Shown: positions 17,254 through 63,456, numbered from the stretch's first letter. The stretch is 64,000 nucleotides of DNA from Minisyncoccota bacterium (GCA_041389025.1 JAWKSP010000002.1:21246-85245); one strand, 5' to 3'. Numbers and translations are program-made. The notes: generated by a model from the sequence alone, not told the origin.

Positions 17254-17263
17254 CTTACTTCAT

Positions 17264-38433: not shown

Positions 38434-38450
38434 ACTGATTAATAACTAGA

Positions 38451-45300: not shown

Positions 45301-48300
45301 AAAACTTCCTATACCATCACTGACACCACCACCCGCTAAGCTAATATCTGTTGTATCATCACCGTCCGTTAAATAACTAGAGTTGTACATTTCCCAACCG
45401 TCACCTGGAGTATCTATATTTAACCACACTGAAGCATCCGAACAAGTTGTTACTTTTAGAGCGTACTCTAGTTGATATTTAGATTGCGTTGTTGTTACTG
45501 TTCCTGTATTAGTTAAACCAAAACGTAGTCTGATTGGAGTATTCAAATTAAAATTTTCTAGAGCCGTGTTCTCAGACCCTCCGGTAGCTGATGTAGCATC
45601 AGTTTCGTTTCCGTCGTCATTTCGCCAGTGATAATTTGCTTGATTTACTATACTACCTTGAATTGTAGTTGTGCTGGTGATTTGTATCGGTGTTGAAGGT
45701 CCTACTGAACCAGAATCAACGGCAACATCGATTGCTGGAGATGATATAATTATTTTAATAGTTTCGCTATCTTCAGCCTCATCTGCTACGTCAAAAACAG
45801 AATAAATACAGAGCGTGCTAGTAGAAGTTATATTAACTGAGTCTGTGAAAGTTTTTGTTTCGTTAAAATCAGAAAAAGCCAAGGAGCTGGTTGCGCCAAA
45901 CTGATTTTCGGTTCCGGTATATGATTCACTGTCGCAATCATATGGGCTGGTAATGTCATGTTTATAATATAAACGTAAGTTACTTAAACTGGTAGAGGCA
46001 TTTACTGTTCCAATTTCAGATAATTTAATGCTTGTAACATTTCTGAAACTGGAGTTCTCTTTAAAAACAAAGCTACCACCTAAATAGTTATTTGGAGAAG
46101 AAACTTCCGCAACCGAGTTTTGTGTTCCAATTGAAGAAACTGTTATGTCTGATGTAATCGTGAGAGTAGGATAATTAGTGTAATTGTTTAAAGCAATATC
46201 ATTACTAATAAGACGAAAACAATAAGTTTCTCCTTCAGCTACTGTGCTCGAGGCTTGAATTGAATATTCAAATTCAATAAATTCATTTTGATCAAGTGAT
46301 ATTCCAGAAACGGTAGAAGTGGTGTCTAAAACCGCATTATTACCGGAAAGAAAGGTGTTGGCACCGTCAGTAACACCACCGCTACTGATAGCTACGTTTG
46401 TAGTATTATTACCGTTTGTTAAATTTATAGAGTCATAAAGATTAAACTTTGCTGACTGAGATCCTACTTCTGTCCATGATATAATATCGCCACAGGTTGG
46501 AGCAGCAACTCCATACTCTAATTTATAAGTACCCGAAACAGTGGTTGTAGCTCCCTCATTGAATAATCCCAAACGCAAGCGTACATTTTCATTGGCCTGA
46601 ACACCATTTAAAACTGTGTTCTCAGACCCTCCGGTAGCTGATGTAGCATCAGTTTCGTTTCCGTCGTCATTTCGCCAGTGATAAGCATTTTGTACTAAAA
46701 TAGGATTAACAACATTAGTCGTCCCCGATAAAGATACTTTTTCTGTCGGAAAAACATCAACCCCTCCAGTTACGTTCACATCATCTTTAGGACTTGTTAT
46801 TACAACTTCAATCGTTTCATCATTTGATGATGTATCAAGTATATCTATTACTGTATATAAACAAATACTTTGAGTAGGTGAAATTTCAACTGATCCGGTA
46901 AACGTGGCTGAACCATTTGCTCCAGAAAACCCGCCTGTCACCGTGTCTCCAAATTGGCTTTCGGTTCCAGTATATGATTCATTACTGCAGTCATATGGTT
47001 CAGACGTATCAAATTCGTAATAAAGCTTAACATCACCAATATCAGCGTCAGCATCAATAGTTCCTTCTTCAGATATTTTTATAGAGGTGACGGTACGAGT
47101 TGCTGTGGTATTAAGGGAAAAACTTCCACCAACGTAAAAAGAGTTGGTTTCAGGACGAACTTCTGTTGATTGAGTACCGACTGAGGATAGAGTGGAGTCA
47201 GGACCAATATCGCTAATTGTATCTCCAACAATGTCTCTGATTCCTGAAGTATGATTGTACCAACTAATGAAAATTCTTTCATATGACAACACATTCATGT
47301 CCACACCATATAAATCACCAGAGACTGAATTGACCGGACCTTGTTCAGAACCCCAACTAGCCATGTTATCTGTTGATTTTACCCAATAAACATCGCCAGT
47401 GTCGATACTGCCAATAGCTGACCTTGCGGTGTAGCCAACATAAAGATCTCCATTATTCTGATCTCTTGAAATAGCAACTTGAACTAAACCTCTTGTTGCG
47501 TCGTTTGTTATTATATCGGTCTTTCCTGTCCATGAACCACCAGAATAAACCGCAGTTCTTATATCGTGGTCATTTGTAGAAAAATCATTATTATCCGCAA
47601 CATAAGCTAAATAAATATCGTTTGATTCAGGGTCAATGGTGGCTGACATCCCCACATCATAAGTAGTGTTTCGAACAGCACCGGTGTCAAAGGAGCTAAT
47701 CGATGACCAAGATGAACCATTCCATACACTGGAACGAATATGATTGTTTGTACTTCTGTTTATTAGCAAGATATTTCCAGAAGCTAGTGGCATTAAGATA
47801 CTCCAGCTATTTGCATTTCCTTGAGGTGGAGTACCAGCTAGTGACCAGTTAGTAGAAAGGTCACAGTTACTGGCACAATTAACAAGTAAGGTTTCATCTC
47901 CATCATCGACACCCATAAAGATTTTTCCGTCAGTAGCTTTCGTTATATAAGGACGATTGGCACCGGACGTAAGTACCGAGACAGCACTCAATGTAGTACT
48001 GGTTGCAGTTGAGCCAAGCAACAAACTGTCATCAGATGTGTCGAGTCTATTATAAAACAGTTCGTCATCACCATTATCCATGGTCGCTATATGAATGTAA
48101 TCACCCATATCATTTGGTGTCCACCGATCATACCAAACCACCACACCTAAACAATCAGACTGAGAATCCACAACGACTGAGGAACCCCACGATAAACCCC
48201 CGTTAGTAGTTTTTGAGTAAACACAATTACCACTGTTTGGTGAACCGTCACGATAAAATCTATAACCTACTTGATCGCCAGTAAAGACTGTAGCTGATCC

Positions 48301-48495
48301 CGCCTGAACTTGAGTTGTTTGACTGGTACTTGGCGAAGAATCTATTATTACCGTAGCCGCCTCAGCAATATTTGATTTTAAAAATAAAATATGCAAAACA
48401 AAATTGTTAGTTAGCTCGAGCATTAAAACAACAAATAAGAGCAGTGTTACAGAACGCTTACGCACAACAAACAAACGTAGAAATAAGTTTCCCAT
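42325..48495 (-). CDS. giant secreted protein (2056 aa): N-terminal BNR/Asp-box-like propeller, then 4 copies of a ~200-350-aa lectin-like beta-sandwich repeat
   Basis: Signal peptide. Asp-box-like TTNGGLSW, SGGSWTGKT. Repeats marked by YHWRNDDGNETDATSATGGSENT (x2), WRWYDDAQNET, YYRFYVDNN, each ending YCFR. Confidence 0.7.
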   Translation of the reverse strand: MGNLFLRLFVVRKRSVTLLLFVVLMLELTNNFVLHILFLKSNIAEAATVIIDSSPSTSQTTQVQAGSATVFTGDQVGYRFYRDGSPNSGNCVYSKTTNGGLSWGSSVVVDSQSDCLGVVVWYDRWTPNDMGDYIHIATMDNGDDELFYNRLDTSDDSLLLGSTATSTTLSAVSVLTSGANRPYITKATDGKIFMGVDDGDETLLVNCASNCDLSTNWSLAGTPPQGNANSWSILMPLASGNILLINRSTNNHIRSSVWNGSSWSSISSFDTGAVRNTTYDVGMSATIDPESNDIYLAYVADNNDFSTNDHDIRTAVYSGGSWTGKTDIITNDATRGLVQVAISRDQNNGDLYVGYTARSAIGSIDTGDVYWVKSTDNMASWGSEQGPVNSVSGDLYGVDMNVLSYERIFISWYNHTSGIRDIVGDTISDIGPDSTLSSVGTQSTEVRPETNSFYVGGSFSLNTTATRTVTSIKISEEGTIDADADIGDVKLYYEFDTSEPYDCSNESYTGTESQFGDTVTGGFSGANGSATFTGSVEISPTQSICLYTVIDILDTSSNDETIEVVITSPKDDVNVTGGVDVFPTEKVSLSGTTNVVNPILVQNAYHWRNDDGNETDATSATGGSENTVLNGVQANENVRLRLGLFNEGATTTVSGTYKLEYGVAAPTCGDIISWTEVGSQSAKFNLYDSINLTNGNNTTNVAISSGGVTDGANTFLSGNNAVLDTTSTVSGISLDQNEFIEFEYSIQASSTVAEGETYCFRLISNDIALNNYTNYPTLTITSDITVSSIGTQNSVAEVSSPNNYLGGSFVFKENSSFRNVTSIKLSEIGTVNASTSLSNLRLYYKHDITSPYDCDSESYTGTENQFGATSSLAFSDFNETKTFTDSVNITSTSTLCIYSVFDVADEAEDSETIKIIISSPAIDVAVDSGSVGPSTPIQITSTTTIQGSIVNQANYHWRNDDGNETDATSATGGSENTALENFNLNTPIRLRFGLTNTGTVTTTQSKYQLEYALKVTTCSDASVWLNIDTPGDGWEMYNSSYLTDGDDTTDISLAGGGVSDGIGSFVSNNDSVTELQTLSATTTIPPNDYVDLEFSIMSNTSTVNNTTYCFRVTSDGDELPTYTNYAELTTSPKRDFIIQRGSVQVSGTSTTLLAGTDYTAVASNTRAFVRITNSHMTGSGHDTGATNNQNADDVTVYIEDSSDLITSFTLARPTTATDNTRVDWEIIEFIGSPGTDNEIVVRMVDTIELSSSDVVATGTSLSNISDSEDVVVFITGIQNQNTSKNFYAGQVTSEWYETGDVPVFKRDHNGSSVVNVSYAVIEFIGVNWKIQRVEHTYLSAGTTETESIAAVNSLSHTFIHTQKRMGANNRVVHYGHEVWLSSIGAVSFRLESGASVAEGQTSVAWIIENTQTGSGEMKVQRSSGNTFGGAAPLSLSVNMGTNVAALNNTSINANSRSEGDNTAYPRPMSGFTLTSTSTYQIWRSKVGAPVFTYQVEIIEWPVADLSIRQNYYRFYVDNNALKPTDPWPLGVVDLGENTSITVNDEPLITGDKIRLRMTLKIINANMPAGFQDFKLQYGLRSGTCSAIESTSWHDLGNNSSSTAWRGYLSTTTTDGTFLSTNPPVAGDLLISISDVSGVLTHENPSAVNPYSVDQDENVEYDWFIEQNNADPKSTYCFRMIKSDNTLVDVYNNYPQIRTAGYTPKTGTWRWYDDAQNETPISPLAAEESAPVNVPDNDDLTLRISVSETKNIQGSNVKFKLQYSEDANFSDAYDVAASDNCVATSSWCYVDGGGVDNEIITTSVLSGNDVCVSSSGGGCGTHNTVSTFVSGHTHEASTTKEYSFTLKGNNPKYDTVYYFRVYDVTFDEPVPTKAGFSYPSLVTEGTNLVFTVSGLPSGTSTAGIITDISTTPNGIEFGSLLFDTNYEAAHRITIDTNASKGYQIFKFASQQFLNNLGTEIPSITGSNISPTSWTIGCQSTSTGCVGYHTTDGTLKGGSTRFAADDTFAGLETLPTEIMYSSIPATESHDIVYRVRIAVMQEFGDYQTEIVYLAVPSF
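45566..45634. repeat. 69-bp perfect intragenic repeat, copy 1 (pairs with 46616..46684)
   Basis: gtgttctcagaccctccggtagctgatgtagcatcagtttcgtttccgtcgtcatttcgccagtgataa identical at both sites, 1050 bp apart. Confidence 0.85.
46616..46684. repeat. 69-bp perfect intragenic repeat, copy 2
   Basis: Identical to 45566..45634. Confidence 0.85.
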
Positions 48496-50698: not shown

Positions 50699-51451
50699 TT
50701 ATAAATCCATGAAGGATTTAGCTAGAATTATAGAAAAGTCAACAAACCCCATTTCTCCATCACCGTTAAAATCGTAAGTTTTTTGTTTAGAGTGCCAAGC
50801 AGACATAAAAGCACTTACATCCTTTAAAGTAACATTACCATCACCATCAATATCAGTGTTTACACTAAGTTCAGCCAAAGCTTTTACAGTAGAAAGATTT
50901 TCACCTTCTGAATATATATAAAGACTGGTTTTTCCAATTTCAGAATCATTGGTAAAAGCAACTTCAGAACCAGTTCCGTCACCCGCCAATAAGCTAGCTT
51001 TATCCAACACCAACTCCGTTTGTCCGGTTGATTTAGCTTTTACGTTAATGGTACCGATCAAATGTTCGCCCATAAAACCCCGCTTAAATGTCCCACCACT
51101 AAATCTAACTACATTTTTTTCGATCTTTGGGTCTTCTGTCCATATTGTCAAAACCGATTCTCCAATGTTAACTCCGGTAATCTCAACCAAATCAGGTGAG
51201 TACTTAACTGATATGTCAACGGCATTTACTGCAGTTTTAGCACCAACAAAAACATCAACTGAGAAACTTTCTCCTTCTATCACCATTTCCTTTGAAGAGG
51301 TTAACTTTACATACGATTTATCAGAAGAAATTACATTCGCATAATACAAACCAGTGATAGTAAATAATATAGGAAAAATGAATGCAAAACGAACAGTCTT
51401 TATTCTCTCTACTTTTCTGTTTTTGTTTACATTAAGCATTTTAAGCTTCAA
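50699..51451 (-). CDS. N-anchored protein with cohesin-like beta-sandwich domain and C-terminal dockerin (twin F-hand) module
   Basis: DIDGDGNVTLKDVSAFMSAW .. DFNGDGEMGFVDFSIILAKSF match dockerin positions 1,3,5,9,12. The middle domain is paralogous to the 53491..53952 and 53956..55047 N-terminal domains. Confidence 0.6.
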   Translation of the reverse strand: MKLKMLNVNKNRKVERIKTVRFAFIFPILFTITGLYYANVISSDKSYVKLTSSKEMVIEGESFSVDVFVGAKTAVNAVDISVKYSPDLVEITGVNIGESVLTIWTEDPKIEKNVVRFSGGTFKRGFMGEHLIGTINVKAKSTGQTELVLDKASLLAGDGTGSEVAFTNDSEIGKTSLYIYSEGENLSTVKALAELSVNTDIDGDGNVTLKDVSAFMSAWHSKQKTYDFNGDGEMGFVDFSIILAKSFMDL

Positions 51452-52115
51452 TCAAATTCGAACGTATTGTGGAAGCTTTTTCAGTCACCACAATCAGTTT
51501 TCCTTTTATGTTACTAGCTTTATCTCTTAATTCAATTATTTCTTTCGAACGCAAATCATTGGTTTGTAAAAGAGACAAAATTATTTGTCTTTGCACTGTG
51601 ACCAGCGACTCAAATTCATCACGAATACTTTTCTCTAATGAAACTAATTCTTTCCAACCACTAATGTCCACTGCAACCTCATCAAAATCTCCCAGAATTG
51701 AGCGCTGTAGAACCATTTGCTCAACAATCTCTATCTCACGTTGCAGTTGACTTAACATCACCGTACGTTGCCCCACAAAGACGTATCCGCATTGATTAAA
51801 AAGACTGTTGAGCTCTGTTAGTTCAATTTTGGTTAAACCTTTGTCCAGTGACGACAATAGTGAGTCAAACTTTTGTCTAGTTTCAATTGGACATTTAGGC
51901 ACAACTGCTTCAGTTAATTCATTTCCACCACCACGACCGGTAATGGAAGCTAATTCCTTAACTAGAATAAGCTGGTTTTCAATTTCGTTATCTAATAAGA
52001 TTTTTACTGAATTAAGTTTTTTGTCACTAATGGCAGTTGATAGAAAATATATAACCAATATCCCTAAAACTATTCCGCCGATAAATGTATACTGTCTTTT
52101 GGTTGTTTCTGTCAT
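51441..52115 (-). CDS. N-anchored coiled-coil protein, hypothetical
   Basis: 224 aa. TM helix FIGGIVLGILVIYFL. Heptad-rich remainder. Confidence 0.5.
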   Translation of the reverse strand: MTETTKRQYTFIGGIVLGILVIYFLSTAISDKKLNSVKILLDNEIENQLILVKELASITGRGGGNELTEAVVPKCPIETRQKFDSLLSSLDKGLTKIELTELNSLFNQCGYVFVGQRTVMLSQLQREIEIVEQMVLQRSILGDFDEVAVDISGWKELVSLEKSIRDEFESLVTVQRQIILSLLQTNDLRSKEIIELRDKASNIKGKLIVVTEKASTIRSNLIEA

Positions 52116-52186
52116 AATATATATTAAATTTAATTTTTACAATTCTATCACAATTTAATAAGCCTGATTTCGCTAAACATCGATTT

Positions 52187-53488
52187 TTATTTGTTTAATT
52201 CATCGATATCGTTTAATTCTTTTTCAATTCTATACTTGGATGAAGACAGAGCCGATTTCATACCGGTAACCACATCATCTTCAGCTTTTGTGAGTTTTTT
52301 CGTGCGCCGTGAGTTTACAAGTTCAGTTTCATAAGCGTCCATAAATCTTTCTAGCTCCGTAAACTCCCGTTTCAAGATGGCGATGGCTTCGGTGGATTCG
52401 GTTTGTACTCGCTTTCGATAGCGCTTAAATCTCAGCAAGGTATACCAAATCAAGAAAGCTAAAAGAGTCAATGTGCCTACTAGTGGAACTATTACCGATA
52501 AAATATCCACTACATAACTACCAATCCTAACAAATCCCGGTTCTTGAACTGCTATTCTAATTGATTCAGATCTTTCGGATACCGCGCCAAAAGCGTCAGT
52601 TGCCACGACTTCTAACTCATAAACACCCTTTGATAGAGTACTTTCCGGTATAAAGACAAATTCACCACTTTCGTTTGCTTTCAAATTATATTCAATTTGG
52701 TTGGCGCCAACCTTTTTTAAAAAGACATTAACATCTGAACCTGGTCTGGTCATTCCTTTAATAACCGGTATAACTTGATCGTTTATTTCATTTGGGTATT
52801 CGGTGAAGGTAGGCTTATCAAATGCGGTAATTGTAAATGAATAGGTTGAAATCAAAGCATTTCCAGCACCATCAATAGCTTCTGCCACTATAGAATGATA
52901 TCCAGGGGATAAACTAGGGAGTGTGAATTCACCAGTTTCATCTATATCAATAAACTCAACCGGCTCTTCTTCATCGATTTTAATCTTATAGTTTTTTACG
53001 CCTGATGTCTCATCTTCTGTTTCAAACAAAAGAGTTTGGTTCGGCGAGCTAAAATCAACACCTTCTGGAGAAGTGATAGTAAACAAAGTCGGTGATTTAC
53101 TATCGACCGCCAGACGGTAGTGAGCCACTTTACCCCAGCCGTTTTCATTTTTAAATTGCAAATGGAAATATAACTCACCTTCCGGTAACGAATCTAAAGT
53201 AATGGTGTTAATTGGTGTGTTATAGACCTTGGTTGGTATGGAACTTGGTGTGGTATCCAATAAGGTTCTAACTGCCACAATGTCGTTTGGCACAGTCCAG
53301 TTTAAAATTGCTGTATCATTTTTATACCAAGAATTACTGTCAACGTGAGTGGATGATGTTATTTTTGGTGTTTGCGGAGTATTCGCCACTGGCACATACC
53401 AACCACCTCCGGTTCCGGCTGAGAACTCACGGCTTGAATAGTGTACGTTCCACCGACATATTTGAAATAATGTTTGAACCCATTCCAT
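52187..53488 (-). CDS. Ig-like-domain surface protein with C-terminal TM anchor and coiled-coil tail; probably the C-terminal part of one gene with 53491..53952
   Basis: No signal peptide of its own. C-terminal helix VVDILSVIVPLVGTLTLLAFLIWY. Architecture matches the C-terminal two-thirds of paralog 53956..55047. Confidence 0.55.
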   Translation of the reverse strand: MEWVQTLFQICRWNVHYSSREFSAGTGGGWYVPVANTPQTPKITSSTHVDSNSWYKNDTAILNWTVPNDIVAVRTLLDTTPSSIPTKVYNTPINTITLDSLPEGELYFHLQFKNENGWGKVAHYRLAVDSKSPTLFTITSPEGVDFSSPNQTLLFETEDETSGVKNYKIKIDEEEPVEFIDIDETGEFTLPSLSPGYHSIVAEAIDGAGNALISTYSFTITAFDKPTFTEYPNEINDQVIPVIKGMTRPGSDVNVFLKKVGANQIEYNLKANESGEFVFIPESTLSKGVYELEVVATDAFGAVSERSESIRIAVQEPGFVRIGSYVVDILSVIVPLVGTLTLLAFLIWYTLLRFKRYRKRVQTESTEAIAILKREFTELERFMDAYETELVNSRRTKKLTKAEDDVVTGMKSALSSSKYRIEKELNDIDELNK

Positions 53489-53490
53489 CG

Positions 53491-53952
53491 TTAGCCAGCA
53501 CCGGACCCATCACCAAATGAAACCTTAGCCGAATTAGCAGAAAGAGTTTTAAAGGTGACATTAAAAATGTTACCTGAAGCACCAGAGTAACCACTAGGTT
53601 TTCCGCCACTAAAGGTAATTGTGCCGGCACTATTAGAAAAAGTTGGTTCTGTTACCCAGAGATTGAATATAGAAGCTGACTTGTCGATTGATACTACAGA
53701 TAAGTGCTGTGGATTAAATTTTAAAGTACCTTCCGCGGCGTTTATGCTTTTGCCACCGGTATTTACAGTGATTGACGCAGTGAAAAGTTTATTTATCTGA
53801 TAAACACCGGTGGAAGGCGTAACTGAGAGTGTAGCAGCGTTTATAGTTACTGGAAAAAAGACAACAATGCTTACTAGATAAAACCTAAATAACCAATTCA
53901 ATTTACTGTTTATCGAAAGAAAGAACTTACTTTTAAAGATGTAACTTTGCAT
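53491..53952 (-). CDS. signal peptide + cohesin-like domain (probable N-terminal part of the split gene)
   Basis: ATLSVTPSTGVYQINKLFTASITV..WVTEPTFSNSAGTITFSGGKPSGYSG paralogous to the other cohesin-like domains. TAA, then 2 nt, then the ATG of the next ORF. Confidence 0.55.
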   Translation of the reverse strand: MQSYIFKSKFFLSINSKLNWLFRFYLVSIVVFFPVTINAATLSVTPSTGVYQINKLFTASITVNTGGKSINAAEGTLKFNPQHLSVVSIDKSASIFNLWVTEPTFSNSAGTITFSGGKPSGYSGASGNIFNVTFKTLSANSAKVSFGDGSGAG

Positions 53953-53955
53953 GCT

Positions 53956-55047
53956 TTATTTTTGATTACTTGATTCTTTATCAAAGTCAGCTTCTTCATC
54001 ATTGGTTATTTCACCTGCTACCTCACTTTCGACTTCTCTTTCTAAGGCTTCTTTTTTTCTTCTTCTGACGTAGTAAATTGAAGTGAAGATAATTATGACC
54101 AGCACGACAATAGATACTATCGCTACCATATTTAGAGAATTGTTTTTAAATCCTGCAACATCAGACCGTAATGATTCATCAGGTACTAAGGTAGCCACAT
54201 ATTCATTACCGGCCTTATCAAAGGCTCGTACTCTAATAGTGCTATTTAAGGTCTGATCGTCCAGTATGTAAGGACTATTGGCTTTAACCCATTCTTTTCC
54301 TACTCCGCCCCAAGCAAAACTACTAAATTGAGATAATGGTTCTTCCATCACTTCATAGTGACTTATACCAGTCTGTTTGTCCTTCGTTGAGAAAATAATG
54401 TAATAACGGCCGTTAAAATTAATTCCTTTTTCATCTCTGATCAGATTGATACTGAATTCCTCTGGTGGAAGATCGTCTTCACGAACCAGTCGATGCCAAT
54501 CATCAGTAATATTAGCAGCCGGATCATTCTCCAAAGCAACCTTCATACCGTAAGTAGTGAGCGGGGCTTTAGTACCCTGCCCGTCATTTAGTAAAATTTG
54601 CGTGGTTGGCAAGAAGGAAACTACAGCTTCAGTACTGGTAGATTTTACACCGATTTGCAAACCTGGAGATCTAAACATTATCTCAGCAATAATATTTGTA
54701 AGACTAGGATCCCCGTCAACACGACCACAATATCCATTTGGAATACCTCCGGCAAAGGATATTGTCCTATCTTCTTTGTTAATAGTTGGCTCCTCGATCC
54801 ATACACTCAAAATAGATTTACCAATAGAAGTATCGACTGGTTGAATATTTTCAGAATATTCTAAAACCGCATCGATAACATTAATACATTCTCCGTTTTC
54901 TTTGTCCGGCATTAATCTAACAGCAGATATAAGAGTATCGCCACGATGTAAAGTTGCGGTGGCTGGATCAATATATAAAGTCGCCGCTAAAGTTTGATTA
55001 CTAGTTATAAGAAGAATAGAAACCAAAAAAGGAGTTAGGTATTTCAT
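53956..55047 (-). CDS. signal peptide + cohesin-like domain + Ig-like domain + C-terminal TM anchor with acidic tail
   Basis: ATLYIDPATATLHRGDTLISAVRL..WIEEPTINKEDRTISFAGGIPNGYCG. C-terminal helix MVAIVSIVVLVIIIFTSIYYV. Confidence 0.6.
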   Translation of the reverse strand: MKYLTPFLVSILLITSNQTLAATLYIDPATATLHRGDTLISAVRLMPDKENGECINVIDAVLEYSENIQPVDTSIGKSILSVWIEEPTINKEDRTISFAGGIPNGYCGRVDGDPSLTNIIAEIMFRSPGLQIGVKSTSTEAVVSFLPTTQILLNDGQGTKAPLTTYGMKVALENDPAANITDDWHRLVREDDLPPEEFSINLIRDEKGINFNGRYYIIFSTKDKQTGISHYEVMEEPLSQFSSFAWGGVGKEWVKANSPYILDDQTLNSTIRVRAFDKAGNEYVATLVPDESLRSDVAGFKNNSLNMVAIVSIVVLVIIIFTSIYYVRRRKKEALEREVESEVAGEITNDEEADFDKESSNQK

Positions 55048-55104
55048 ATATTCTAAATTATATCAAATCTTTATCAAACCTAGTTTAAATATATACACAA
55101 CTTT

Positions 55105-55144
55105 AGACAAACAAAAAACCCGTCTCGTGGTGGGAGATAGGTTT
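55105..55144 (-). terminator. hairpin AAACCTATCTC-ccaccac-GAGACGGGTTT + TTTTGTTTGT on the minus strand, internal to the surface locus
   Basis: One mismatch in an 11-bp stem, read directly. Confidence 0.5.
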
Positions 55145-55180
55145 TCTGTTTTAAACTCCAAGCTTGAAGCCAATACTGTT

Positions 55181-55906
55181 TTAAAATACTGGCGTTGCTA
55201 CGTATGTCAGCGTAGCAGTATAGTCATCTGCTGCTTCTTGCAAAGCGGTTGCTTCAACGGTGTAACCAATTCTAGCTACACCGACACCGTCGTTGGTGCC
55301 ATTAGCAGGACCGTCGTTTCTGAATATCTCTACCGGAGTAGTTGATGCTGAAACGTAGGCTCTACCTGAACCACCAACATCAAACTCATCAGATAGACCG
55401 GCTGTTACAGTTGAGTCGTTCGAAGTTATACCCCAATGTCCATAAGTATCTTCATTTCCAATCGTTTCAGACGGCGATACCCAAAGAGTAGGTGTTGAGG
55501 TGTATGCACCATCAGCAAACCCATCTATATCTGCACCAGTTGCAGATATTAGTTGTCCATCTGCCTGAACAGTAACCACAAAGCCGTTGGCGGCGTTAGT
55601 GCTTACAGAAAGATCCTGAGCAATTGTGGCTGGTGTATCAGCCGCAAGTGTACCAAAAGGAATCGTGGTTGGTGTTGAAGTACCAGTTGTTGTATCCTGA
55701 TTGACACCAAGACCGTTTCCAACACCATTTACCGTAAAGTTAAAGATTGTATCTACTGATGCAGTAACTGTTACTGTATCTACAATAGCAACTCTAGTTT
55801 GTCCAGTGTCTGTTCCACTATCAATATCAACATCGATAGTGTAAGAACCAGAGGTTGGGTTGGTTATTTGGTTTGTTCCAGTTCCATTGGTGGTAAAGCA
55901 TACCAA
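55181..55906 (-). CDS. Thr/Gly-rich surface-protein fragment with no Met (begins at TTG immediately after a TAA); probable downstream half of a split gene with 55827..56330
   Basis: 241 codons containing no internal Met. The overlapping upstream ORF carries the signal peptide. Same composition in both. Confidence 0.45.
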   Translation of the reverse strand: MVCFTTNGTGTNQITNPTSGSYTIDVDIDSGTDTGQTRVAIVDTVTVTASVDTIFNFTVNGVGNGLGVNQDTTTGTSTPTTIPFGTLAADTPATIAQDLSVSTNAANGFVVTVQADGQLISATGADIDGFADGAYTSTPTLWVSPSETIGNEDTYGHWGITSNDSTVTAGLSDEFDVGGSGRAYVSASTTPVEIFRNDGPANGTNDGVGVARIGYTVEATALQEAADDYTATLTYVATPVF

Positions 55907-56330
55907 TTTGAATTGTTACGGTAGCCCCTGCACCAATGGTGTCTGTACCGCTAGTTATGTCTATAACCTGACCGGCTGTTGTAACATTCCAGTCAACACC
56001 ATTAGCCGCTCCATCGATAAGAGACTCTTCGGTTCCTGATACATTCATATCAAGATCTTGAGCTACTAAACTACCGATACCTGTAAAACCTGACTGAAAA
56101 GTGAGGGAGATTACTCCACCTGCACCTAAACCAGTCGGTGTAACAAAACTAATTGTGTGATCAGAAACAGTTGAAGGAGCTGAATCTGAAAGAGTGTCGC
56201 TAAAGTTTGTGACATTTGCAGCTTCCACAAACCTAATCATAGGTAGGCCTATTGACCAAAGTACTATGGCTATTATTGAAGTCACCGCAACAGCTTGGAG
56301 CAATGAGAACGAAAATAGCGTTCTTAACAT
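55827..56330 (-). CDS. signal-peptide-bearing N-terminal part of a Thr/Gly-rich surface protein
   Basis: MLRTLFSFSLLQAVAVTSIIAIVLW. Overlaps the next ORF by 80 nt in another frame. Confidence 0.5.
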   Translation of the reverse strand: MLRTLFSFSLLQAVAVTSIIAIVLWSIGLPMIRFVEAANVTNFSDTLSDSAPSTVSDHTISFVTPTGLGAGGVISLTFQSGFTGIGSLVAQDLDMNVSGTEESLIDGAANGVDWNVTTAGQVIDITSGTDTIGAGATVTIQIGMLYHQWNWNKPNNQPNLWFLHYRC

Positions 56331-56392
56331 ATTGCTCTACGTTGTATTAGTCCACAGTCCGGATCTAACACGTCGCGACTCCGTGCTTCCGA

Positions 56393-56409
56393 ATGGTTAA
56401 ATTAACCAT
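56393..56409. promoter_or_regulatory. perfect 17-nt palindrome ATGGTTAA-a-TTAACCAT ~65 nt upstream of the start at 56330 (candidate operator)
   Basis: Read directly, inside a 275-bp intergenic leader. Confidence 0.35.
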
Positions 56410-56606
56410 GCAATGTGAGGTCTCCACTCCGCACATCTAAAAAAGCACTGTAAACATATCTGCTTTGTAATACTTGGCTGAAGTACCCAAGTTACGCGAC
56501 AAACTTGCAGTGAATCTAAAATGGTTCACCTCCAAAACAGATACATTTTTATTTTAACTTTTTTCTAAAATTTAAAAGCGTACTTATACACAAAATTTGA
56601 AAAAAC

Positions 56607-57806
56607 TTAACCTGTCCAATTAAAAAGTAAGATTGAAAAATCTTCTATGCCAACCTTTCCATTGCCGTTTATGTCAGCGGACGGATTTGAATTCCCACCG
56701 TCACTTCCCCACCAAAAAATCAAAATAGAAAAGTCCACCAAGTTTACATTGTTATCACGATTTAAATCTGATGAGGTGGTGATCTTACCCTCCACACCAA
56801 CAAACAACTGTAAAGCTGTACTGAAGCTACTTTCAGTCGTTAGTGGTTCTACCCCAGTAACTGAACGGACTTTGATATTGTGTTCATCAACCGAAAGTTT
56901 TGCAACATTTAATATTCCAGACCATTCCCCGTCCGAATCAGAATTAAATGTCTGCAACAGATTTGTATTATCAGCAAAGACTTCAATCTTTGCATTTGGT
57001 ACAGATTGCCCGCTAATCGTTACTTCATCACCAAAGTCGATCTGTTGGTCAGAAAGACGTATGGTTGGTGGTATTATAATACCCGTTAAATTAGTTATAG
57101 CCCCATGTGTTACGTCAAAAGTAGTGTTGAATGTAACTGATTTCGTACTTTTGCTGTCAGTAGCCCAAAAACTGAGTGAAGCAGTTCCTGGTGAAGCTTC
57201 AGTTGAAAAATCAAACTCACCAGAACTATCTGCTTTTACAGTACCAACTTGTTCGGTATCCAGCAAAATATTTACTATTCGACTTGGATAAGATTTTCCT
57301 GATATGCTAATTTCGGTATCATTTAGTTTTTTTGTACTTCCTCCTCCACCGCCACTATTTCCACCAGAACTACCACCACCACCAGAGCCAGCCGGTTCAA
57401 TTTTACAGATTGCCGAGCAAAAATCTCCATTGTCATTATTGCCATCATCACACTCCTCACCGTAAGTGGTTTGCAAAATACCGTCTCCGCAATATGGTCC
57501 CCAGAGACAAGCTGGGGTACACTGCCTGCCTACGATAGTGGTACTGTAGACACCTGTTTCTCCCGGCGTATCACATTGTTCGTTACTATCCACCAAGGAA
57601 TTACCGCAAATACTTAAATTCACTGTTGTGGTGGCAGAAGTTGTAGTGGCGCCGTATGCTTGTGACACACTCAATAATTGCAAAATAAAAAGCACAATGC
57701 ATGATAAGGCAAAACAAAGAGTTGTCCCTTTACTTAAATCTAATTTTAGTAGGGTTTTAAAAAACTTCATAATTATCCTATTTCGCTTTATATCTTGACC
57801 GAGCAA
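56607..57806 (-). CDS. secreted protein: two myxococcus-type Cys-rich repeats, Gly-rich linker, Ig-like domains, C-terminal dockerin module
   Basis: CGNSLVDSNEQCDTPGE..C and CGDGILQTTYGEECDDGNNDNGDFCSAIC (TIGR02232-like). DLNRDNNVNLVDFSILIFWW .. DINGNGKVGIEDFSILLFNW dockerin F-hands. Confidence 0.7.
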   Translation of the reverse strand: MLGQDIKRNRIIMKFFKTLLKLDLSKGTTLCFALSCIVLFILQLLSVSQAYGATTTSATTTVNLSICGNSLVDSNEQCDTPGETGVYSTTIVGRQCTPACLWGPYCGDGILQTTYGEECDDGNNDNGDFCSAICKIEPAGSGGGGSSGGNSGGGGGSTKKLNDTEISISGKSYPSRIVNILLDTEQVGTVKADSSGEFDFSTEASPGTASLSFWATDSKSTKSVTFNTTFDVTHGAITNLTGIIIPPTIRLSDQQIDFGDEVTISGQSVPNAKIEVFADNTNLLQTFNSDSDGEWSGILNVAKLSVDEHNIKVRSVTGVEPLTTESSFSTALQLFVGVEGKITTSSDLNRDNNVNLVDFSILIFWWGSDGGNSNPSADINGNGKVGIEDFSILLFNWTG

Positions 57807-58761
57807 AATATAGCATTAGGATGATCACTATAAAGACAGGTAATAGAATTGATACCTTGTGCGCAAACGATAAGCCAAAGAAGCCAAAGCCGGCAGTTTG
57901 CAACGTACCGTAAGGGAGAATACTTAAGTTTACCTCACCTTCTTGTTTAACATCATCTCCATTATAAATAGTATATCTGGCAATGTAACTACCGGCCGGT
58001 AATCTGGTTGGTATTTCCGCAACGACTTCTTCAGTGGCGTATGGTTCAATCTTAGGTACTTTTCCTAAGTTCTTAGTTTCTTCAAGCAGTACCTTCCCGC
58101 CAAAATCAAAAATTCTAAATTCCACCTTTGATGGTGAAATATTTACATTTCCAGTGTTTTCAATCAACATTCCGAAATTAATTTTTCCTGGAAAATATAG
58201 CCAACCGACTTTCTTCCCTTCATTCAAATCAGACACAGAAATCTTCCTGACCCGAAAGTCTTTAATTTCCCTATCGATAACATTTAGATCAATATCCACT
58301 TGAGCTCCCAAAGATATATTTACTGCTCCGGATGACACTTGATTATCATCGGGAACAGTTTTAATTCGCATAACACCTTTATAATCTTTAAAGTCGGCGT
58401 CTTTTGGCACTTTTACTCGCACAGTCATTGGAACCTTTTGTTCTCCTCTTGGTAAAGGAATGGTATAACCCTCAACTACTTCTATCCAATCCTGTATCTC
58501 AGGTGCGTCAATAGTTATTTGAGCTTTTAGTGGAACATTTGGATCACCTCTTACTAAAAGTATCTGTTGTTCATAAGTTGAATTTCTGGTTAGACTGGTA
58601 TTTTTTACATAAGGAGGTGTAATACCAAAACCAGCTCTGGCAAATTCAATTGATACTAAAAAAAATAGCAGAGTTACCGCAATCAGTTTTCCCAACCCTT
58701 CTTTCATGAGAGTATTATACACAATGATAATTATCTGAAAAAATGAACAAAAAGGCAACAA
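57778..58761 (-). CDS. DUF916/DUF3324-like surface protein (signal peptide + beta ectodomain + C-terminal TM)
   Basis: Same architecture as 41278..42321. C-terminal helix ILLPVFIVIILMLYF. Confidence 0.45.
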   Translation of the reverse strand: MLPFCSFFQIIIIVYNTLMKEGLGKLIAVTLLFFLVSIEFARAGFGITPPYVKNTSLTRNSTYEQQILLVRGDPNVPLKAQITIDAPEIQDWIEVVEGYTIPLPRGEQKVPMTVRVKVPKDADFKDYKGVMRIKTVPDDNQVSSGAVNISLGAQVDIDLNVIDREIKDFRVRKISVSDLNEGKKVGWLYFPGKINFGMLIENTGNVNISPSKVEFRIFDFGGKVLLEETKNLGKVPKIEPYATEEVVAEIPTRLPAGSYIARYTIYNGDDVKQEGEVNLSILPYGTLQTAGFGFFGLSFAHKVSILLPVFIVIILMLYFARSRYKAK

Positions 58762-60765: not shown

Positions 60766-61974
60766 TTATTCATAACGAATAGCATCAAGTGGATTTAAAG
60801 TTGAGGCTCGCCTAGCCGGAAAAACACCTGTCAAATAACCAACTGCCGCTGAAAATAAAGCAATGAAGGTCAAAAACCCAAGCGGGAAAGAAAATAACGT
60901 AACGGCCTGTCCACCAAACTGGCTGGCTAAAATATTTAAAAATAGATTTATTGTTAAACCGATTAAAACACCCATTAATATTCCAGTAATACCACCCAAA
61001 AAACCTACTACAATTGACTCTGAGATAAAAAGATTTTTAACATCCTTTGGCGAAGCACCAATGGTTCTCATGATTCCAATCTCTTTTGTCCGTTCCAATA
61101 AAGTAACTGTCATAGTGTTAAACATACCGATAGCTGACACCACCAGAGCGATACCACCAAAAGTGGCTAAAACTACTTGTATGCCTTGAAATATTTTTGA
61201 TGCCTGTTCTACAGTTTTTGATAGTGCGGTAACTCTGTAGCCTTCCTCTATTAATTTTTCTTCAACGATTGGTAAATTTTCATTGGTGTCCACACGGACT
61301 TGCACTCTCTCATACTGCTCAATACCTACGTGACTTCTTAACTCAGGAAGCATCATCATACTATTTAAAACCGCCTCTTCCTTGGTAATACCTTTCACCA
61401 CATATTCTTTATCAATCGGAACCTCTAATACAGCATCCGTACCATCTTCAGCTGGAACTAACAATCGAAACGAAACTTTTTGACCAACAAAAGACTCAGG
61501 GTCATCAACACCAAAAAGCTTTAGAACGGCTGGCGACAACATGACTGAATTAGCATCTCCAGCATCTTCTTCTGTAAATACATCACCAGCTGTAGCGGTT
61601 ATCCCGGCGTATTTCAAATATGGTGGTTCAACTCCTTGAATAAAAACATTACCGGTCAAACCTTTATACGTCACCAAAGCCGGAAACCTAGCTAAAGGTG
61701 CCACGTCGACCACCTCAGGCATTTCTTTAAATTTTTGAACGGTGTCGCTATTTAAAGTAAGATTCTGACTTCCGGTAGCCGACACCCCAAGTGACAGCAG
61801 AGTTTCACCAAATACAATCTGCTCTAATATAATTTTCTGTAAACCAAAACCAAGTCCTACCAACACAACCACCGCTCCGGTACCAACCCCCATACCAAGA
61901 ATAGTCAACCATGTACGCATTGGGTTGGTCTTAAACATTCTGGTTGAAAGTTGTGCTAAATCTTGTACTCGCAT
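60766..61974 (-). CDS. ABC transporter permease, FtsX/MacB-like
   Basis: 4 TM helices with a large extracytoplasmic domain between TM1 and TM2. C-terminal FtsX motif IGIMRTIGASPKDVKNLFISES. Confidence 0.8.
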   Translation of the reverse strand: MRVQDLAQLSTRMFKTNPMRTWLTILGMGVGTGAVVVLVGLGFGLQKIILEQIVFGETLLSLGVSATGSQNLTLNSDTVQKFKEMPEVVDVAPLARFPALVTYKGLTGNVFIQGVEPPYLKYAGITATAGDVFTEEDAGDANSVMLSPAVLKLFGVDDPESFVGQKVSFRLLVPAEDGTDAVLEVPIDKEYVVKGITKEEAVLNSMMMLPELRSHVGIEQYERVQVRVDTNENLPIVEEKLIEEGYRVTALSKTVEQASKIFQGIQVVLATFGGIALVVSAIGMFNTMTVTLLERTKEIGIMRTIGASPKDVKNLFISESIVVGFLGGITGILMGVLIGLTINLFLNILASQFGGQAVTLFSFPLGFLTFIALFSAAVGYLTGVFPARRASTLNPLDAIRYE

Positions 61975-62133
61975 TAGATGAAGAAATGGGCGTGGTGACT
62001 ATTCTGAATTTACGTCCCAATTTTTTATTTCCTTAAAAAATTACTGGACGTTGAAGGTCGAACGCTCATAGAATTACGAACCTATAATACAATTATTCTA
62101 CCACTACACATTAAGCAAATAATTAGTTACTCA

Positions 62134-63456
62134 CTAACTTTTATAACTAACATCCACACCTTGTGCTATTACTTTTTCAAAATAACGAGTTAGATCATCG
62201 GCTTCTTTCTCGCTTAAACCTAGACCATTACTCCTTATTCCTTTTGATAGGTTTTCATTAAACTCATCTTCTTCAATAACTCCAGTTACTCTGTCGGCTA
62301 TCATTTCAATTAGGTTTTCGTCTTGTTTTTTATTTAACTTTATATGATGTGTGCTTTGTAAATGATGCCTTAGTCGCTCCGCCAGCTTATGTTGACTAAA
62401 GAAAATTTCGTTATTGTCTTTTTTGGCTCTAAAACGCCGAATATCATCAGCTTGTTCCATCAATTTTTCTGCAGTACTGGCCATTTTTTTAGCATCTGCC
62501 TCAAGCACCTCTACACCTCCCCTTTCAAATGGTAAAACCAATCCTTTGATAAAGGTTTTTTTATCAATTTTTCCTTTTATAAAAAGACCGATTGCATGCT
62601 CTAGTCTCACTAATTGTTTATAGGTGTATTTTTGAGTAAGGAAATTCACCATACTCTTAACTCGCAGAGTGTCTACTGAATCATAAGGATAGAGTCTGGC
62701 CAATTGCTCTAACTCTGTTACTATCGTCTCCCCTTCTTTTACCGGTTTTATTTGCTTACGCTGAGGATTTACCACTTCACGCACAATATGACCGTCTTTT
62801 AAATAATAAACACGATGCGCGTAACTCAAATGAGCGGCGTTATGCGACACCATAATAATAGTACGACGATCAAAGGTGTTAATCTCGTCAATTTTATCCA
62901 TTACCTGCTGAGTCGATACTGAGTCTAAGTTACCCGTTGGTTCATCAGCTAAAAGAATTTTTGGGTCATTTACCATCGAGCGTGATACTGATACGCGTTG
63001 TTGCTGACCTCCTGAAAGCATGGCTGGAACTTTGTGTGACACATGCCCTACCCCAAAACGATCCAACAATGACTGCGCTCGTCTTTCACGAGAAGTTTTA
63101 TCGGCATCACAGAAAATCATCGGTAAAGCCACATTATCCAATACTGAAAGAGATGGAATTAGGTTAAAAGATTGAAATATAATACCCATCACATAACGTT
63201 GAAAGTAGACACGCTCTTCAGGCGGATAAGAATATATATCATCACCGCGAATTAAAAGCGTACCTTCACCAGGTGGTAAGGAACCTTGAATTGCATACAT
63301 CAGAGTTGATTTACCCGAGCCTGAAGCACCAAAAAGAATGATGTACTCACCTTCGTAAATATCGGTATTTACACCTGTCAAAGCTTTAAACTCGTTTGAC
63401 TTACCTTTATTATAAATAATTGATAAGTCACGACAAACAATCAGCGGTTTCGCCAT
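62134..63456 (-). CDS. ABC transporter ATP-binding protein with ~200-aa C-terminal extension
   Basis: Walker A GASGSGKST, signature LSGGQQQRVSVSR, Walker B ILLADEPTGNLD. Partner of the FtsX-like permease. Confidence 0.85.
   Translation of the reverse strand: MAKPLIVCRDLSIIYNKGKSNEFKALTGVNTDIYEGEYIILFGASGSGKSTLMYAIQGSLPPGEGTLLIRGDDIYSYPPEERVYFQRYVMGIIFQSFNLIPSLSVLDNVALPMIFCDADKTSRERRAQSLLDRFGVGHVSHKVPAMLSGGQQQRVSVSRSMVNDPKILLADEPTGNLDSVSTQQVMDKIDEINTFDRRTIIMVSHNAAHLSYAHRVYYLKDGHIVREVVNPQRKQIKPVKEGETIVTELEQLARLYPYDSVDTLRVKSMVNFLTQKYTYKQLVRLEHAIGLFIKGKIDKKTFIKGLVLPFERGGVEVLEADAKKMASTAEKLMEQADDIRRFRAKKDNNEIFFSQHKLAERLRHHLQSTHHIKLNKKQDENLIEMIADRVTGVIEEDEFNENLSKGIRSNGLGLSEKEADDLTRYFEKVIAQGVDVSYKS

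What the first reader, a model, noticed from the sequence alone, without database searches (positions are those of the whole stretch)
50699..57806. Two dockerin-type C-termini and three paralogous cohesin-like domains in neighbouring genes
Proteins 50699..51451 and 56607..57806 each end in two ~22-aa segments with Asp/Asn at positions 1, 3, 5, 9 and 12 (DIDGDGNVTLKD, DFNGDGEMGFVD; DLNRDNNVNLVD, DINGNGKVGIED). Each segment is followed by hydrophobic helix residues, which is the dockerin duplicated F-hand pattern. The ~120-aa domains of 50699..51451, 53491..53952 and 53956..55047 align with each other and show the alternating beta-strand pattern of cohesins. One protein (50699..51451) carries both module types plus a membrane anchor, which could allow chaining or anchoring of dockerin-bearing cargo.
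Basis: partly seen in the sequence, partly recalled or inferred. Interest (0 to 1): 0.7.

Follow-up and report, generated by a model that had tools for sequence, protein, structure and literature searches.

The report
Cohesin–dockerin set in Paceibacteria surface operon
Three membrane-tethered cohesin modules and two dockerin modules, the plug-and-socket parts best known from cellulosomes, sit in a rigidly conserved cell-surface operon of ultra-small Paceibacteria next to a pilin-like gene, and probably hold a surface complex together rather than degrade cellulose.

Summary

Corrections:
- 53491-53952 is the 5' piece of one 587-codon gene (52187-53952) broken by three 1-nt indels. It is intact in 39 other genomes.
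- Loop position 9 is Asp/Asn in only one of the four loops.
- P1's "anchor" could be a signal peptide.

The window is a Paceibacterota MAG. The genes lie in a 13-gene cluster with invariant order in 45 species-level genomes. The cluster also holds a MacB-type ABC transporter, a distant relative of the CPR Pam pilin, and a 2056-aa protein sharing that pilin's C-terminal domain. There are no carbohydrate-active enzymes.

Best reading: a non-cellulosomal cohesin-dockerin tethering set for a surface or pilus-associated complex. Binding and partner choice remain untested. This is a new variant of a known kind, of moderate interest.

The parts
56607..57806 (-). P4: secreted dockerin-bearing protein. 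Order of parts: signal peptide, Cys-rich DUF4215/myxo_disulf repeat (57393-57617), Gly/Ser linker, two Ig-like domains (56817-57332), C-terminal dockerin. The true start is probably about 12-36 codons downstream of the TTG at 57806.
   Evidence: Pfam DUF4215 40.6 bits, Big_6 33.2 bits, Dockerin_1 27.2 bits against a cut-off of 22.9. TIGR02232 E 8.9e-13. The orthologue alignment shows shorter N-termini.
56610..56771 (-). P4 dockerin module (residues 346-399): two F-hand loops, DLNRDNNVNLVD and DINGNGKVGIED, each followed by an almost identical helix (DFSILIFWW and DFSILLFNW).
   Evidence: It is the most conserved module of the cluster, with 83.5% mean pairwise identity over 27 species.
53956..55047 (-). 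P3: signal peptide, N-terminal cohesin domain (54514-54987), FnIII/Ig-like domain (54178-54465), C-terminal transmembrane helix (54061-54147), short charged tail.
52187..53952 (-). P2: one gene split here into ORFs 53491-53952 and 52187-53488 by three single-base indels near 53503, 53452 and 53400. Reconstructed 587-aa product: signal peptide, cohesin (about 53401-53835), Big_13 and other Ig-like domains, TM helix, about 90 aa of cytoplasmic coiled coil.
   Evidence: The 582-aa Nomurabacteria orthologue aligns across the in-frame TAA and into a second frame. Three-frame reading. HMM fragments in the other frames. Pfam Cohesin 27.8 bits on the fragment. Orthologues are 574-651 aa and uninterrupted in 39 genomes.
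51441..52115 (-). P5: conserved 224-aa protein with an N-terminal TM helix and a helical domain. It always lies between P2 and P1. Function unknown.
   Evidence: No family hit. TM helix at residues 8-30. Found at the same position in 45 of the 47 loci compared, 44 of 46 distinct genomes.
50699..51451 (-). P1: N-terminal hydrophobic segment (51332-51394; signal anchor or signal peptide), cohesin (50906-51322), about 15-aa linker, C-terminal dockerin (50702-50866).
   Evidence: Pfam Dockerin_1 20.0 bits and Cohesin 18.0 bits, both below cut-off. AF2 pLDDT 74.5. All top 40 Foldseek hits are cohesins, best 2vo8 with TM 0.83. The dockerin motif is invariant in 63 orthologues. NCBI names the identical protein 'cohesin domain-containing protein'.
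55184..56330 (-). Context: pilin-like gene, split here into ORFs 55827-56330 and 55181-55906 by one frameshift near 55900. Its C-terminal domain is a distant relative of the CPR Pam pilin C-terminal domain.
   Evidence: The 382-aa orthologue aligns in two frames. NF058581 CPR_Pam_pilin_C is hit by 24 of 33 orthologues (best E 3.2e-6, full model coverage) and by 39 of 60 divergent family representatives (best E 9.1e-10). The scores shown (18.9 and 17.5 bits) are far below the 55-bit cut-off.
42325..48495 (-). Context: 2056-aa surface protein whose last roughly 190 residues are homologous to the pilin-like C-terminal domain. Candidate tip adhesin.
   Evidence: tblastn cross-hits E 3.4e-7 and 8.6e-6. 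No Pfam or NCBIfam hit.
57778..58761 (-). Context: 327-aa protein with a signal peptide and a C-terminal TM helix. It is weakly paralogous to 41278-42321 and, through that protein, linked to the N-terminal part of 39663-41327 (WxLIP_PGBD + LytR_C).
   Evidence: tblastn paralogy E 2e-4 and 9e-18. WxLIP_PGBD 29.3 bits against a cut-off of 27.3 on the 554-aa protein. TM positions.
60766..63456 (-). Context: MacB/FtsX-type ABC permease (60766-61974) and its ATPase (62134-63456) at the head of the conserved cluster.
   Evidence: Pfam MacB_PCD 69.2 bits, FtsX 64.1 bits, ABC_tran 111.3 bits. The permease lies at the upstream edge of the cluster in every locus that reaches that far. The ATPase lies beyond the fetched flanks and was not checked.

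Best explanation
These are genuine but divergent cohesin and dockerin modules. They form a non-cellulosomal tethering set inside a conserved cell-surface operon of Paceibacteria.

Shown:
- There are three single-cohesin proteins. P2 and P3 present an N-terminal cohesin on an Ig/FnIII stalk held by a C-terminal transmembrane helix. P1 has an N-terminal hydrophobic segment, a cohesin and a dockerin.
- There is one secreted cargo, P4, made of a Cys-rich repeat, two Ig-like domains and a dockerin.
- All four genes are co-oriented, adjacent, and syntenic in 45 species.

Inferred:
- After Sec export, the Ca-loaded dockerins of P4 and P1 plug into the membrane-tethered cohesins. P4, which has no anchor of its own, is thereby held at the cell surface.
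- P1, having both module types, acts as an adaptor or cross-linker. Its dockerin would bind P2 or P3 and its cohesin would bind P4, or P1 could chain head to tail.
- Because the set is embedded between a Pam-like pilin, a giant protein with the same pilin domain, Ig-fold membrane proteins and a MacB-type transporter, the complex most likely forms the base or an accessory platform of an adhesive filament or surface layer used for host or particle attachment. It does not look like an enzyme scaffold.
- In this MAG the P2 gene and the pilin-like gene carry frameshifts. Either this copy is partly decayed or the assembly is erroneous there.
For: Module identity:
- Pfam hits above the curated cut-off for the P4 dockerin and the P2 cohesin.
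- 29 of 29 P4 orthologues hit Dockerin_1. 25 of 39 P2 orthologues hit Cohesin. 32 of the 120 listed P1 orthologues carry a precomputed PF00404 hit.

Paralogy and exclusivity: the cross-family HMM hits are restricted to these five modules in the whole 64-kb window.

Selection: the dockerin loops and helices are invariant or nearly so in 63 P1 and 29 P4 orthologues. The P4 dockerin is the most conserved module in the cluster, at 83.5% identity.

Co-inheritance: gene order MacB-620-327-P4-pilin-P3-P2-P5-P1-684-2056-347-554 is identical in all 45 species-representative genomes, as far as each contig reaches, and in a complete 1.09-Mb Nomurabacteria genome.

Topology: signal peptides and TM helices are placed as described.

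Context: the pilin-like neighbour relates to CPR Pam pilins (preprint 10.64898/2026.03.03.709456). No glycoside hydrolase or CBM was found in any cluster protein. DsbA and thioredoxin genes downstream fit disulfide-rich exported proteins.
Against: - No binding was tested. No multimer prediction could be run.
- A mirror-tree analysis over 27 species gave no signal that pairs either dockerin with a particular cohesin.
- P1 is below Pfam cut-offs on both modules, and P3 has no sequence-level cohesin hit.
- The reconstructed full-length P2 of this window did not return Cohesin at E<=0.01, although its 153-aa fragment did.
- Loop position 9 is not Asp/Asn in three of the four loops.
- The link to a Pam-type pilus rests on sub-threshold HMM matches (best E 9.1e-10; the bit scores shown are 17.5 and 18.9 against a cut-off of 55). 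The Pam preprint mentions no cohesin or dockerin.
- P2 is frameshifted here, so in this organism the full set may not be functional.
Confidence: 0.6

Rival explanations
1. Pilus-anchor reading. The cohesin-fold domains of P2 and P3 are not dockerin receptors. They are the ectodomains of membrane anchors or terminators of a Pam-like donor-strand pilus, analogous to PamR (two FnIII domains plus a C-terminal TM helix). The dockerins would be Ca-binding modules with another target, such as cell wall, host glycan or the pilus shaft.
For: P2 and P3 share the 'beta-sandwich domains plus C-terminal TM helix' layout described for PamR, PamC and PamD in preprint 10.64898/2026.03.03.709456. RbmA, the PamR-like fold, appears among the P3 Foldseek hits (rank 50, E 1.3e-5). 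The adjacent gene is a distant Pam pilin relative. No co-evolution signal links P4's dockerin to any cohesin.
Confidence: 0.2
2. Cellulosome-like enzyme scaffold. The set organises carbohydrate-active enzymes on the cell surface, as in Clostridia.
For: It uses the same module families (PF00963, PF00404). The closest solved structures are cellulosomal.
Against: No protein has more than one cohesin. Neither dockerin protein carries a catalytic or carbohydrate-binding module, only Cys-rich and Ig-like modules or a cohesin. No GH, CE, PL or CBM hit was found in any cluster protein. Only two dockerins occur in the 64 kb. The host is a reduced-genome Paceibacterium.
Confidence: 0.04
3. Chance or mis-call. 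The C-terminal motifs are generic EF-hand-like Ca loops, and the beta domains are generic Ig-like sandwiches with no specific relation to cohesin or dockerin.
For: P1 also gives weak EF-hand_1 and EF-hand_6 hits and sub-threshold scores on both modules. P3 has no Pfam hit. Beta-sandwich folds are easily over-matched.
Confidence: 0.03

Closest known systems
Non-cellulosomal cohesin-dockerin pairs, for example the Archaeoglobus fulgidus cohesin (PDB 2xdh) and Clostridium perfringens glycoside-hydrolase cohesins (2vo8, 2jh2, 2w1n). Surveyed by Peer et al. 2009, cited through PMC9012536.
   Different: Here the cohesins are held by transmembrane helices. The set is a fixed 3:2 module complement inside one operon conserved across a whole CPR class, next to pilin-like genes. 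The cargo is a Cys-rich/Ig protein, not an enzyme.
Cellulosomal type I cohesin-dockerin system (Clostridium/Acetivibrio thermocellum CipA, OlpA, OlpC; PF00963 and PF00404)
   Same: Same two module families: a duplicated F-hand dockerin at the C-terminus of the cargo and a cohesin beta-sandwich. The near-identical helices in P4's two repeats recall the symmetric dual-binding-mode dockerins (sequence; the comparison is from my own knowledge).
   Different: No scaffoldin, CBM, SLH or sortase anchoring, and no enzymes. Sequence identity to solved cohesins is only 9-20%. P3 is undetectable by the Pfam model.
Pam pilus system of CPR bacteria (Troman et al. 2026, bioRxiv 10.64898/2026.03.03.709456; NCBIfam NF058581 and NF058579)
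   Same: The gene next to P3 and P4 has a C-terminal domain distantly matching the Pam pilin C-terminal domain. The operon also encodes several beta-sandwich proteins with an N-terminal signal and a C-terminal TM helix, as described for PamC, PamD and PamR.
   Different: Pam pilins were reported mainly in Saccharimonadia and Microgenomatia. The preprint mentions no cohesin, dockerin or MacB transporter. The bit scores shown here are far below the family cut-off. Membership of the Pam system is not established.
WxL/Csc cell-surface complex loci of Firmicutes (WxL-interacting protein, DUF916 = PF06030)
   Same: The 554-aa protein at the cluster's downstream end passes the WxLIP_PGBD cut-off (29.3 against 27.3 bits) and has two paralogues in the cluster. 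Like Csc loci, this is a multi-gene locus of non-enzymatic surface proteins.
   Different: No WxL-domain or LPXTG proteins were detected. The cohesin and dockerin modules are not part of WxL loci.

Membership tests
Dockerin (Pfam PF00404 Dockerin_1) | HMM score at or above the Pfam gathering cut-off (22.9 bits) | tested here: met
   P4 scores 27.2 bits, and 29 of 29 orthologues hit at E<=0.001. P1 itself scores 20.0 bits, below the cut-off, but 32 of 120 listed orthologues carry a precomputed PF00404 hit. The P4-family HMM hits P1 at E 1.7e-5.
Dockerin (Pfam PF00404 Dockerin_1) | Two tandem 12-residue Ca-binding loops (Asp/Asn at positions 1, 3, 5 and 12), each followed by a helix, at the protein's C-terminus | tested here: met
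   All four loops have D/N at positions 1, 3, 5 and 12. Position 9 is D/N in only one loop. Helices at 209-221 and 236-247 in the P1 model, with block pLDDT 76-92 over residues 201-250.
Dockerin (Pfam PF00404 Dockerin_1) | Ca-dependent binding to a cognate cohesin | not testable with these tools
   No multimer prediction or experiment was available. The mirror-tree analysis was uninformative.
Cohesin (Pfam PF00963) | HMM score at or above the Pfam gathering cut-off (24.1 bits) | tested here: inconclusive
   The P2 fragment scores 27.8 bits and passes, and 25 of 39 P2 orthologues hit. The reconstructed full-length P2 gave no hit at E<=0.01. P1 scores 18.0 bits, below the cut-off. P3 and all 120 listed orthologues have no hit.
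Cohesin (Pfam PF00963) | Cohesin-type nine-stranded beta-sandwich fold | tested here: met
Cellulosome | Scaffoldin with multiple cohesins, plus dockerin-bearing carbohydrate-active enzymes and a CBM | tested here: not met
   Each protein has one cohesin. The dockerin proteins carry Cys-rich/Ig modules or a cohesin only. No CAZyme or CBM family was found in the cluster.
CPR Pam pilus system (NCBIfam NF058581; preprint 10.64898/2026.03.03.709456) | Pilin whose C-terminal domain reaches the family cut-off (55 bits) | tested here: not met
   The window fragment scores 18.9 bits. 24 of 33 orthologues hit at E<=0.01, best 3.2e-6. 39 of 60 divergent relatives hit, best 9.1e-10. This is consistent remote similarity, with the scores shown far below the cut-off.
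CPR Pam pilus system (NCBIfam NF058581; preprint 10.64898/2026.03.03.709456) | PapD-like membrane-anchored chaperones and donor-strand-exchange assembly | tested here: inconclusive
   The 327-, 347- and 554-aa proteins have an N-terminal signal and a C-terminal TM helix, but give only weak Ig-like or WxLIP hits. No structure prediction quota was left. Donor-strand exchange is not testable here.

The most novel reading that the evidence does not exclude
In Paceibacteria, cohesin-dockerin pairing has been recruited as the membrane-proximal docking platform of a Pam-related, donor-strand-type pilus. The transmembrane cohesin proteins P2 and P3 would form the base. P1 would bridge. The dockerin protein P4 would couple the platform to a filament built from the 382-aa pilin and tipped by the 2056-aa adhesin that shares the pilin's C-terminal domain. 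This would be a previously undescribed way to anchor a surface filament in a cell that has neither an outer membrane usher nor a sortase.
Probability: 0.25. Interest if true: 0.8.

Novelty: new variant of a known kind. Interest (0 to 1): 0.55.

Why it matters
Paceibacteria (Parcubacteria) are among the most abundant uncultivated bacteria, and how they attach to hosts or particles is largely unknown. This locus is a fixed 13-gene surface operon, kept in the same order in 45 species-level genomes. It combines cohesin-dockerin connectors with a pilin-like protein and a giant putative adhesin.

That gives a concrete, testable candidate for their attachment apparatus. The tests could be recombinant binding assays, multimer modelling, or cryo-ET of enrichments. 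The locus also extends cohesin-dockerin biology to transmembrane-anchored, non-enzymatic complexes in the Candidate Phyla Radiation. Finally, it supplies very divergent orthogonal cohesin-dockerin pairs that could be useful as protein-assembly parts. One of the three cohesin families is invisible to Pfam.

Tried and rejected
- Partner assignment by mirror-tree. I computed distance matrices for five modules over 27 species, regressed them on a background of four other cluster proteins, and ran a Mantel test. The P4 dockerin shows no residual correlation with any cohesin (r -0.13 to 0.04). The P1 dockerin correlates weakly with all three (r 0.20-0.29). This does not discriminate between partners.
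- Linking the pilin-like protein to solved structures by sequence. phmmer and a profile search against PDB sequences gave nothing meaningful.
- Reaching distant pilin relatives with the 1.84-billion-protein search. The 150 hits listed were all close family members (E<=7e-33), so the link to Pam pilins had to go through NCBIfam scans.
- Pfam scan of the 327-aa and 347-aa families for PapD-like or WxLIP domains. Only scattered weak Ig-like hits came back.
- Pfam on the reconstructed full-length P2 of the window. Unexpectedly there was no Cohesin hit at E<=0.01. I suspect a length or filter effect, but did not test that.
- The afdb50 fold library was unavailable, so the taxonomic spread of the cohesin+FnIII+TM architecture could not be surveyed structurally.
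- Literature searches for cohesin or dockerin in Parcubacteria, Paceibacteria or CPR found no description of this cluster. The only related note is an essential dockerin-domain protein in a Saccharibacterium (PMC10633639).
- The cellulosome reading was rejected for lack of any enzyme or CBM.

Full report
**Origin and gene models**

The window is from a Candidatus Paceibacterota MAG. P1 (50699-51451) and P3 (53956-55047) are 100% identical to NCBI proteins from a 250,242-bp contig, and NCBI already names P1 'cohesin domain-containing protein'. All genes discussed lie on the minus strand, packed head to tail.

**Observation check: dockerins**

- P1 ends with DIDGDGNVTLKD...DFNGDGEMGFVD. P4 (56607-57806) ends with DLNRDNNVNLVD...DINGNGKVGIED.
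- Positions 1, 3, 5 and 12 are Asp/Asn in all four loops. Position 9 is Asp/Asn only in the first P4 loop.
- Each loop is followed by a hydrophobic helix. The P1 model has helices at 209-221 and 236-247.
- A loop regular expression finds 5 matches in all 461 six-frame ORFs of at least 40 aa. Four of them are these two pairs.
- Pfam Dockerin_1 scores 27.2 bits on P4 (cut-off 22.9) and 20.0 bits on P1.
- All 29 P4 orthologues hit Dockerin_1 (best E 4.3e-8). 32 of the 120 listed P1 orthologues carry a precomputed PF00404 hit.
- The loops and helices are invariant or nearly so in 63 P1 and 29 P4 orthologues.

**Observation check: cohesins**

- The three beta domains are paralogous. BLASTP gives E 2e-8, 3e-7 and 7e-14. 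Family HMMs cross-hit only these three proteins in the window (E 1e-6 to 7e-16).
- Pfam Cohesin passes its cut-off on the 153-aa P2 fragment (27.8 against 24.1 bits). It is sub-threshold on P1 (18.0 bits) and absent on P3. None of the 120 listed P3 orthologues has any Pfam hit.
- Structure settles the matter. The AF2 model of P1 (pLDDT 74.5) matches only cohesins in its top 40 Foldseek-PDB hits (best 2vo8, E 4e-9, TM 0.83).

**Corrections to the gene picture**

- The ORF 53491-53952 is only the 5' piece of a larger gene. The 582-aa Nomurabacteria orthologue aligns through its TAA stop and then into the frame of ORF 52187-53488.
- Reading the three frames gives ...SFGDGS | VLANDGMGSNIISNMS | GGTYTIQAVSSQPEPEVV | YVPVANTPQ... 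This implies three single-base indels within about 110 nt. The missing cohesin strands are found by HMM in the other two frames.
- The gene is uninterrupted (574-651 aa) in 39 other genomes.
- The reconstructed 587-aa product has this order: signal peptide, cohesin, Ig-like domains (Big_13), TM helix, coiled-coil tail. Oddly, the reconstructed protein did not return Cohesin at E<=0.01, although 25 of 39 orthologues do.
- The neighbouring ORFs 55827-56330 and 55181-55906 are likewise one 382-codon gene with a single frameshift near 55900. I cannot tell whether these four indels are assembly errors or real decay.
- P1's N-terminal hydrophobic stretch stays below the 1.8 hydropathy cut-off used. 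My hand sum for its best 19-aa window is about 1.6. 'Membrane anchor' against 'cleaved signal peptide' stays open.

**Conservation**

- P1 has 437 database relatives and P3 has 919.
- A scan of one genome per species found P1 orthologues in 45 MAGs labelled Paceibacteria, Kaiserbacteria, Nomurabacteria, Parcubacteria or similar.
- tblastn of all cluster proteins shows one invariant order wherever the contig reaches: MacB permease, 620-aa, 327-aa, P4 (dockerin), 382-aa pilin-like, P3, P2, P5, P1, 684-aa, 2056-aa, 347-aa, 554-aa. The same order holds in a complete 1.09-Mb Nomurabacteria chromosome.
- Over 27 species the P4 dockerin is the most conserved module (83.5% mean identity). The other four modules are at 53-67%, and the background cluster proteins at 33-65%.

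**Context**

- None of the cluster proteins has a carbohydrate-active or carbohydrate-binding domain. P4's cargo is a Cys-rich DUF4215/myxo_disulf repeat plus two Ig-like domains.
- The 382-aa protein's C-terminal domain matches NCBIfam NF058581 (CPR Pam pilus pilin, C-terminal domain). The match appears in 24 of 33 orthologues (best E 3.2e-6, full model length) and in 39 of 60 more divergent family representatives (best E 9.1e-10; one also hits PamT). The window fragment scores only 18.9 bits and the one orthologue shown 17.5 bits, against a cut-off of 55.
- The same domain ends the 2056-aa protein and several 570-1022-aa proteins elsewhere. That is the layout expected for tip adhesins that carry a pilin domain.
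- The Pam system was described in 2026 from cryo-EM of Ca. Mycosynbacter filaments. It has donor-strand pilins, membrane-anchored PapD-like chaperones and an FnIII+TM anchor called PamR. It was reported mainly in Saccharimonadia and Microgenomatia, and the preprint makes no mention of cohesin or dockerin.
- Three paralogous proteins here (327, 347 and 554 aa) have a signal peptide and a C-terminal TM helix. The 554-aa one passes WxLIP_PGBD and LytR_C.

**Mechanism**

- Shown: the modules, their topology and their co-inheritance.
- Inferred: P4, which has no anchor, is held at the surface by its dockerin binding a membrane-tethered cohesin on P2, P3 or P1. P1, with both modules, bridges or chains.
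- P4's two repeat helices are nearly identical (DFSILIFWW and DFSILLFNW). This is the symmetry seen in dual-binding-mode dockerins (my own knowledge). P1's two helices differ from each other.
- Which dockerin binds which cohesin is unknown. The mirror-tree analysis was uninformative.
- More speculatively, the complex serves the adjacent pilus-like apparatus.

**Rivals**

- (a) P2 and P3 are PamR-like pilus anchors, and the dockerins have another target. Possible, confidence about 0.2. RbmA appears at rank 50 for P3, but with a poor superposition.
- (b) A cellulosome. Rejected, because there is no scaffoldin, enzyme or CBM.
- (c) Chance EF-hand and Ig matches. Rejected.

**Comparison with the known, and novelty**

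- Non-cellulosomal cohesin-dockerin modules are known in all three domains of life (Peer et al. 2009, as cited in PMC9012536).
- A dockerin-domain protein was noted as essential in a Saccharibacterium (PMC10633639).
- I found no paper describing this Paceibacteria cluster.
- The modules are new, divergent members of known families. The arrangement is a new variant of a known kind: three TM-tethered single cohesins plus two dockerins, fixed within a pilin-containing operon across a CPR class.
- Interest is moderate (0.55). It is not a surprise at domain level, but it is a concrete handle on the surface biology of Paceibacteria.

Noticed in passing
window 53380-53520 and 55880-55920: Four single-base indels break two adjacent surface-protein genes: the P2 cohesin gene 52187-53952 (three indels within about 110 nt) and the pilin-like gene 55184-56330 (one indel). 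Every other large gene in the 64 kb looks intact, and both genes are intact in other genomes. The cause could be assembly error, strain mixture or real decay.
   Followed up: partly
window 55184-56330 and 42328-42855; L001:5232-6380: The 382-aa protein is a distant relative of the newly described CPR Pam pilin C-terminal domain (NF058581), with the scores shown far below the family cut-off. The same domain ends the 2056-aa giant protein. This suggests a Pam-related filament with a giant tip adhesin in Paceibacteria, a class where the preprint did not report it as prevalent.
   Followed up: partly
window 57778-58761, 41278-42321, 39663-41327: Three linked proteins each have an N-terminal signal and a C-terminal TM helix. 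The 347-aa and 554-aa proteins are clear paralogues (E 9e-18), and the 327-aa protein matches the 347-aa one weakly (E 2e-4). The 554-aa one carries WxLIP_PGBD (DUF916) and LytR_C. They are candidates for membrane-anchored chaperone or anchor roles, but the fold was not determined.
   Followed up: partly
window 60766-63456: A MacB/FtsX-type ABC permease, with its ATPase upstream, heads the cluster. The permease is found at the upstream edge in every locus that reaches that far. The ATPase has a roughly 200-aa C-terminal extension beyond the ABC domain. Its role is unknown; export or mechanotransmission are possibilities.
   Followed up: no
window 37873-39131: DsbA-like thioredoxin and AhpC/redoxin-like genes lie just downstream of the cluster. 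This fits disulfide-rich exported proteins: P4's Cys-rich repeat and P3's invariant Cys54 and Cys107.
   Followed up: no
protein P0241: A 4710-aa metagenomic protein matches residues 55-110 of the pilin C-terminal fragment in 46 separate stretches. It is either a giant repeat protein built from a piece of this domain or a Thr/Gly-rich low-complexity match.
   Followed up: no
window 52187-53952 (reconstructed protein): The 153-aa fragment passes Pfam Cohesin (27.8 bits), but the reconstructed 587-aa protein returns no Cohesin hit at E<=0.01. 14 of 39 full-length orthologues also miss it. Detection of this cohesin subfamily by PF00963 is marginal, and the P3 family is missed entirely.
   Followed up: partly
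loci L003, L005, L009, L018, L030, L032, L037, L040, L042, L044-L046: Twelve MAGs titled 'uncultured Candidatus Saccharibacteria bacterium' carry the same syntenic cluster with 37-51% identity to P1. Either the record names are imprecise or the cluster extends beyond Paceibacteria.
   Followed up: no
window 48544-50598: The 684-aa protein after P1 has a long acidic, low-complexity N-terminal half and C-terminal beta-propeller repeats (TIGR04275, E 6.9e-12). Only the C-terminal half is conserved among orthologues.
   Followed up: no
window 17085-17340: Two tRNA-Ala genes (GGC and TGC anticodons) lie about 100 nt apart on the minus strand.
   Followed up: no
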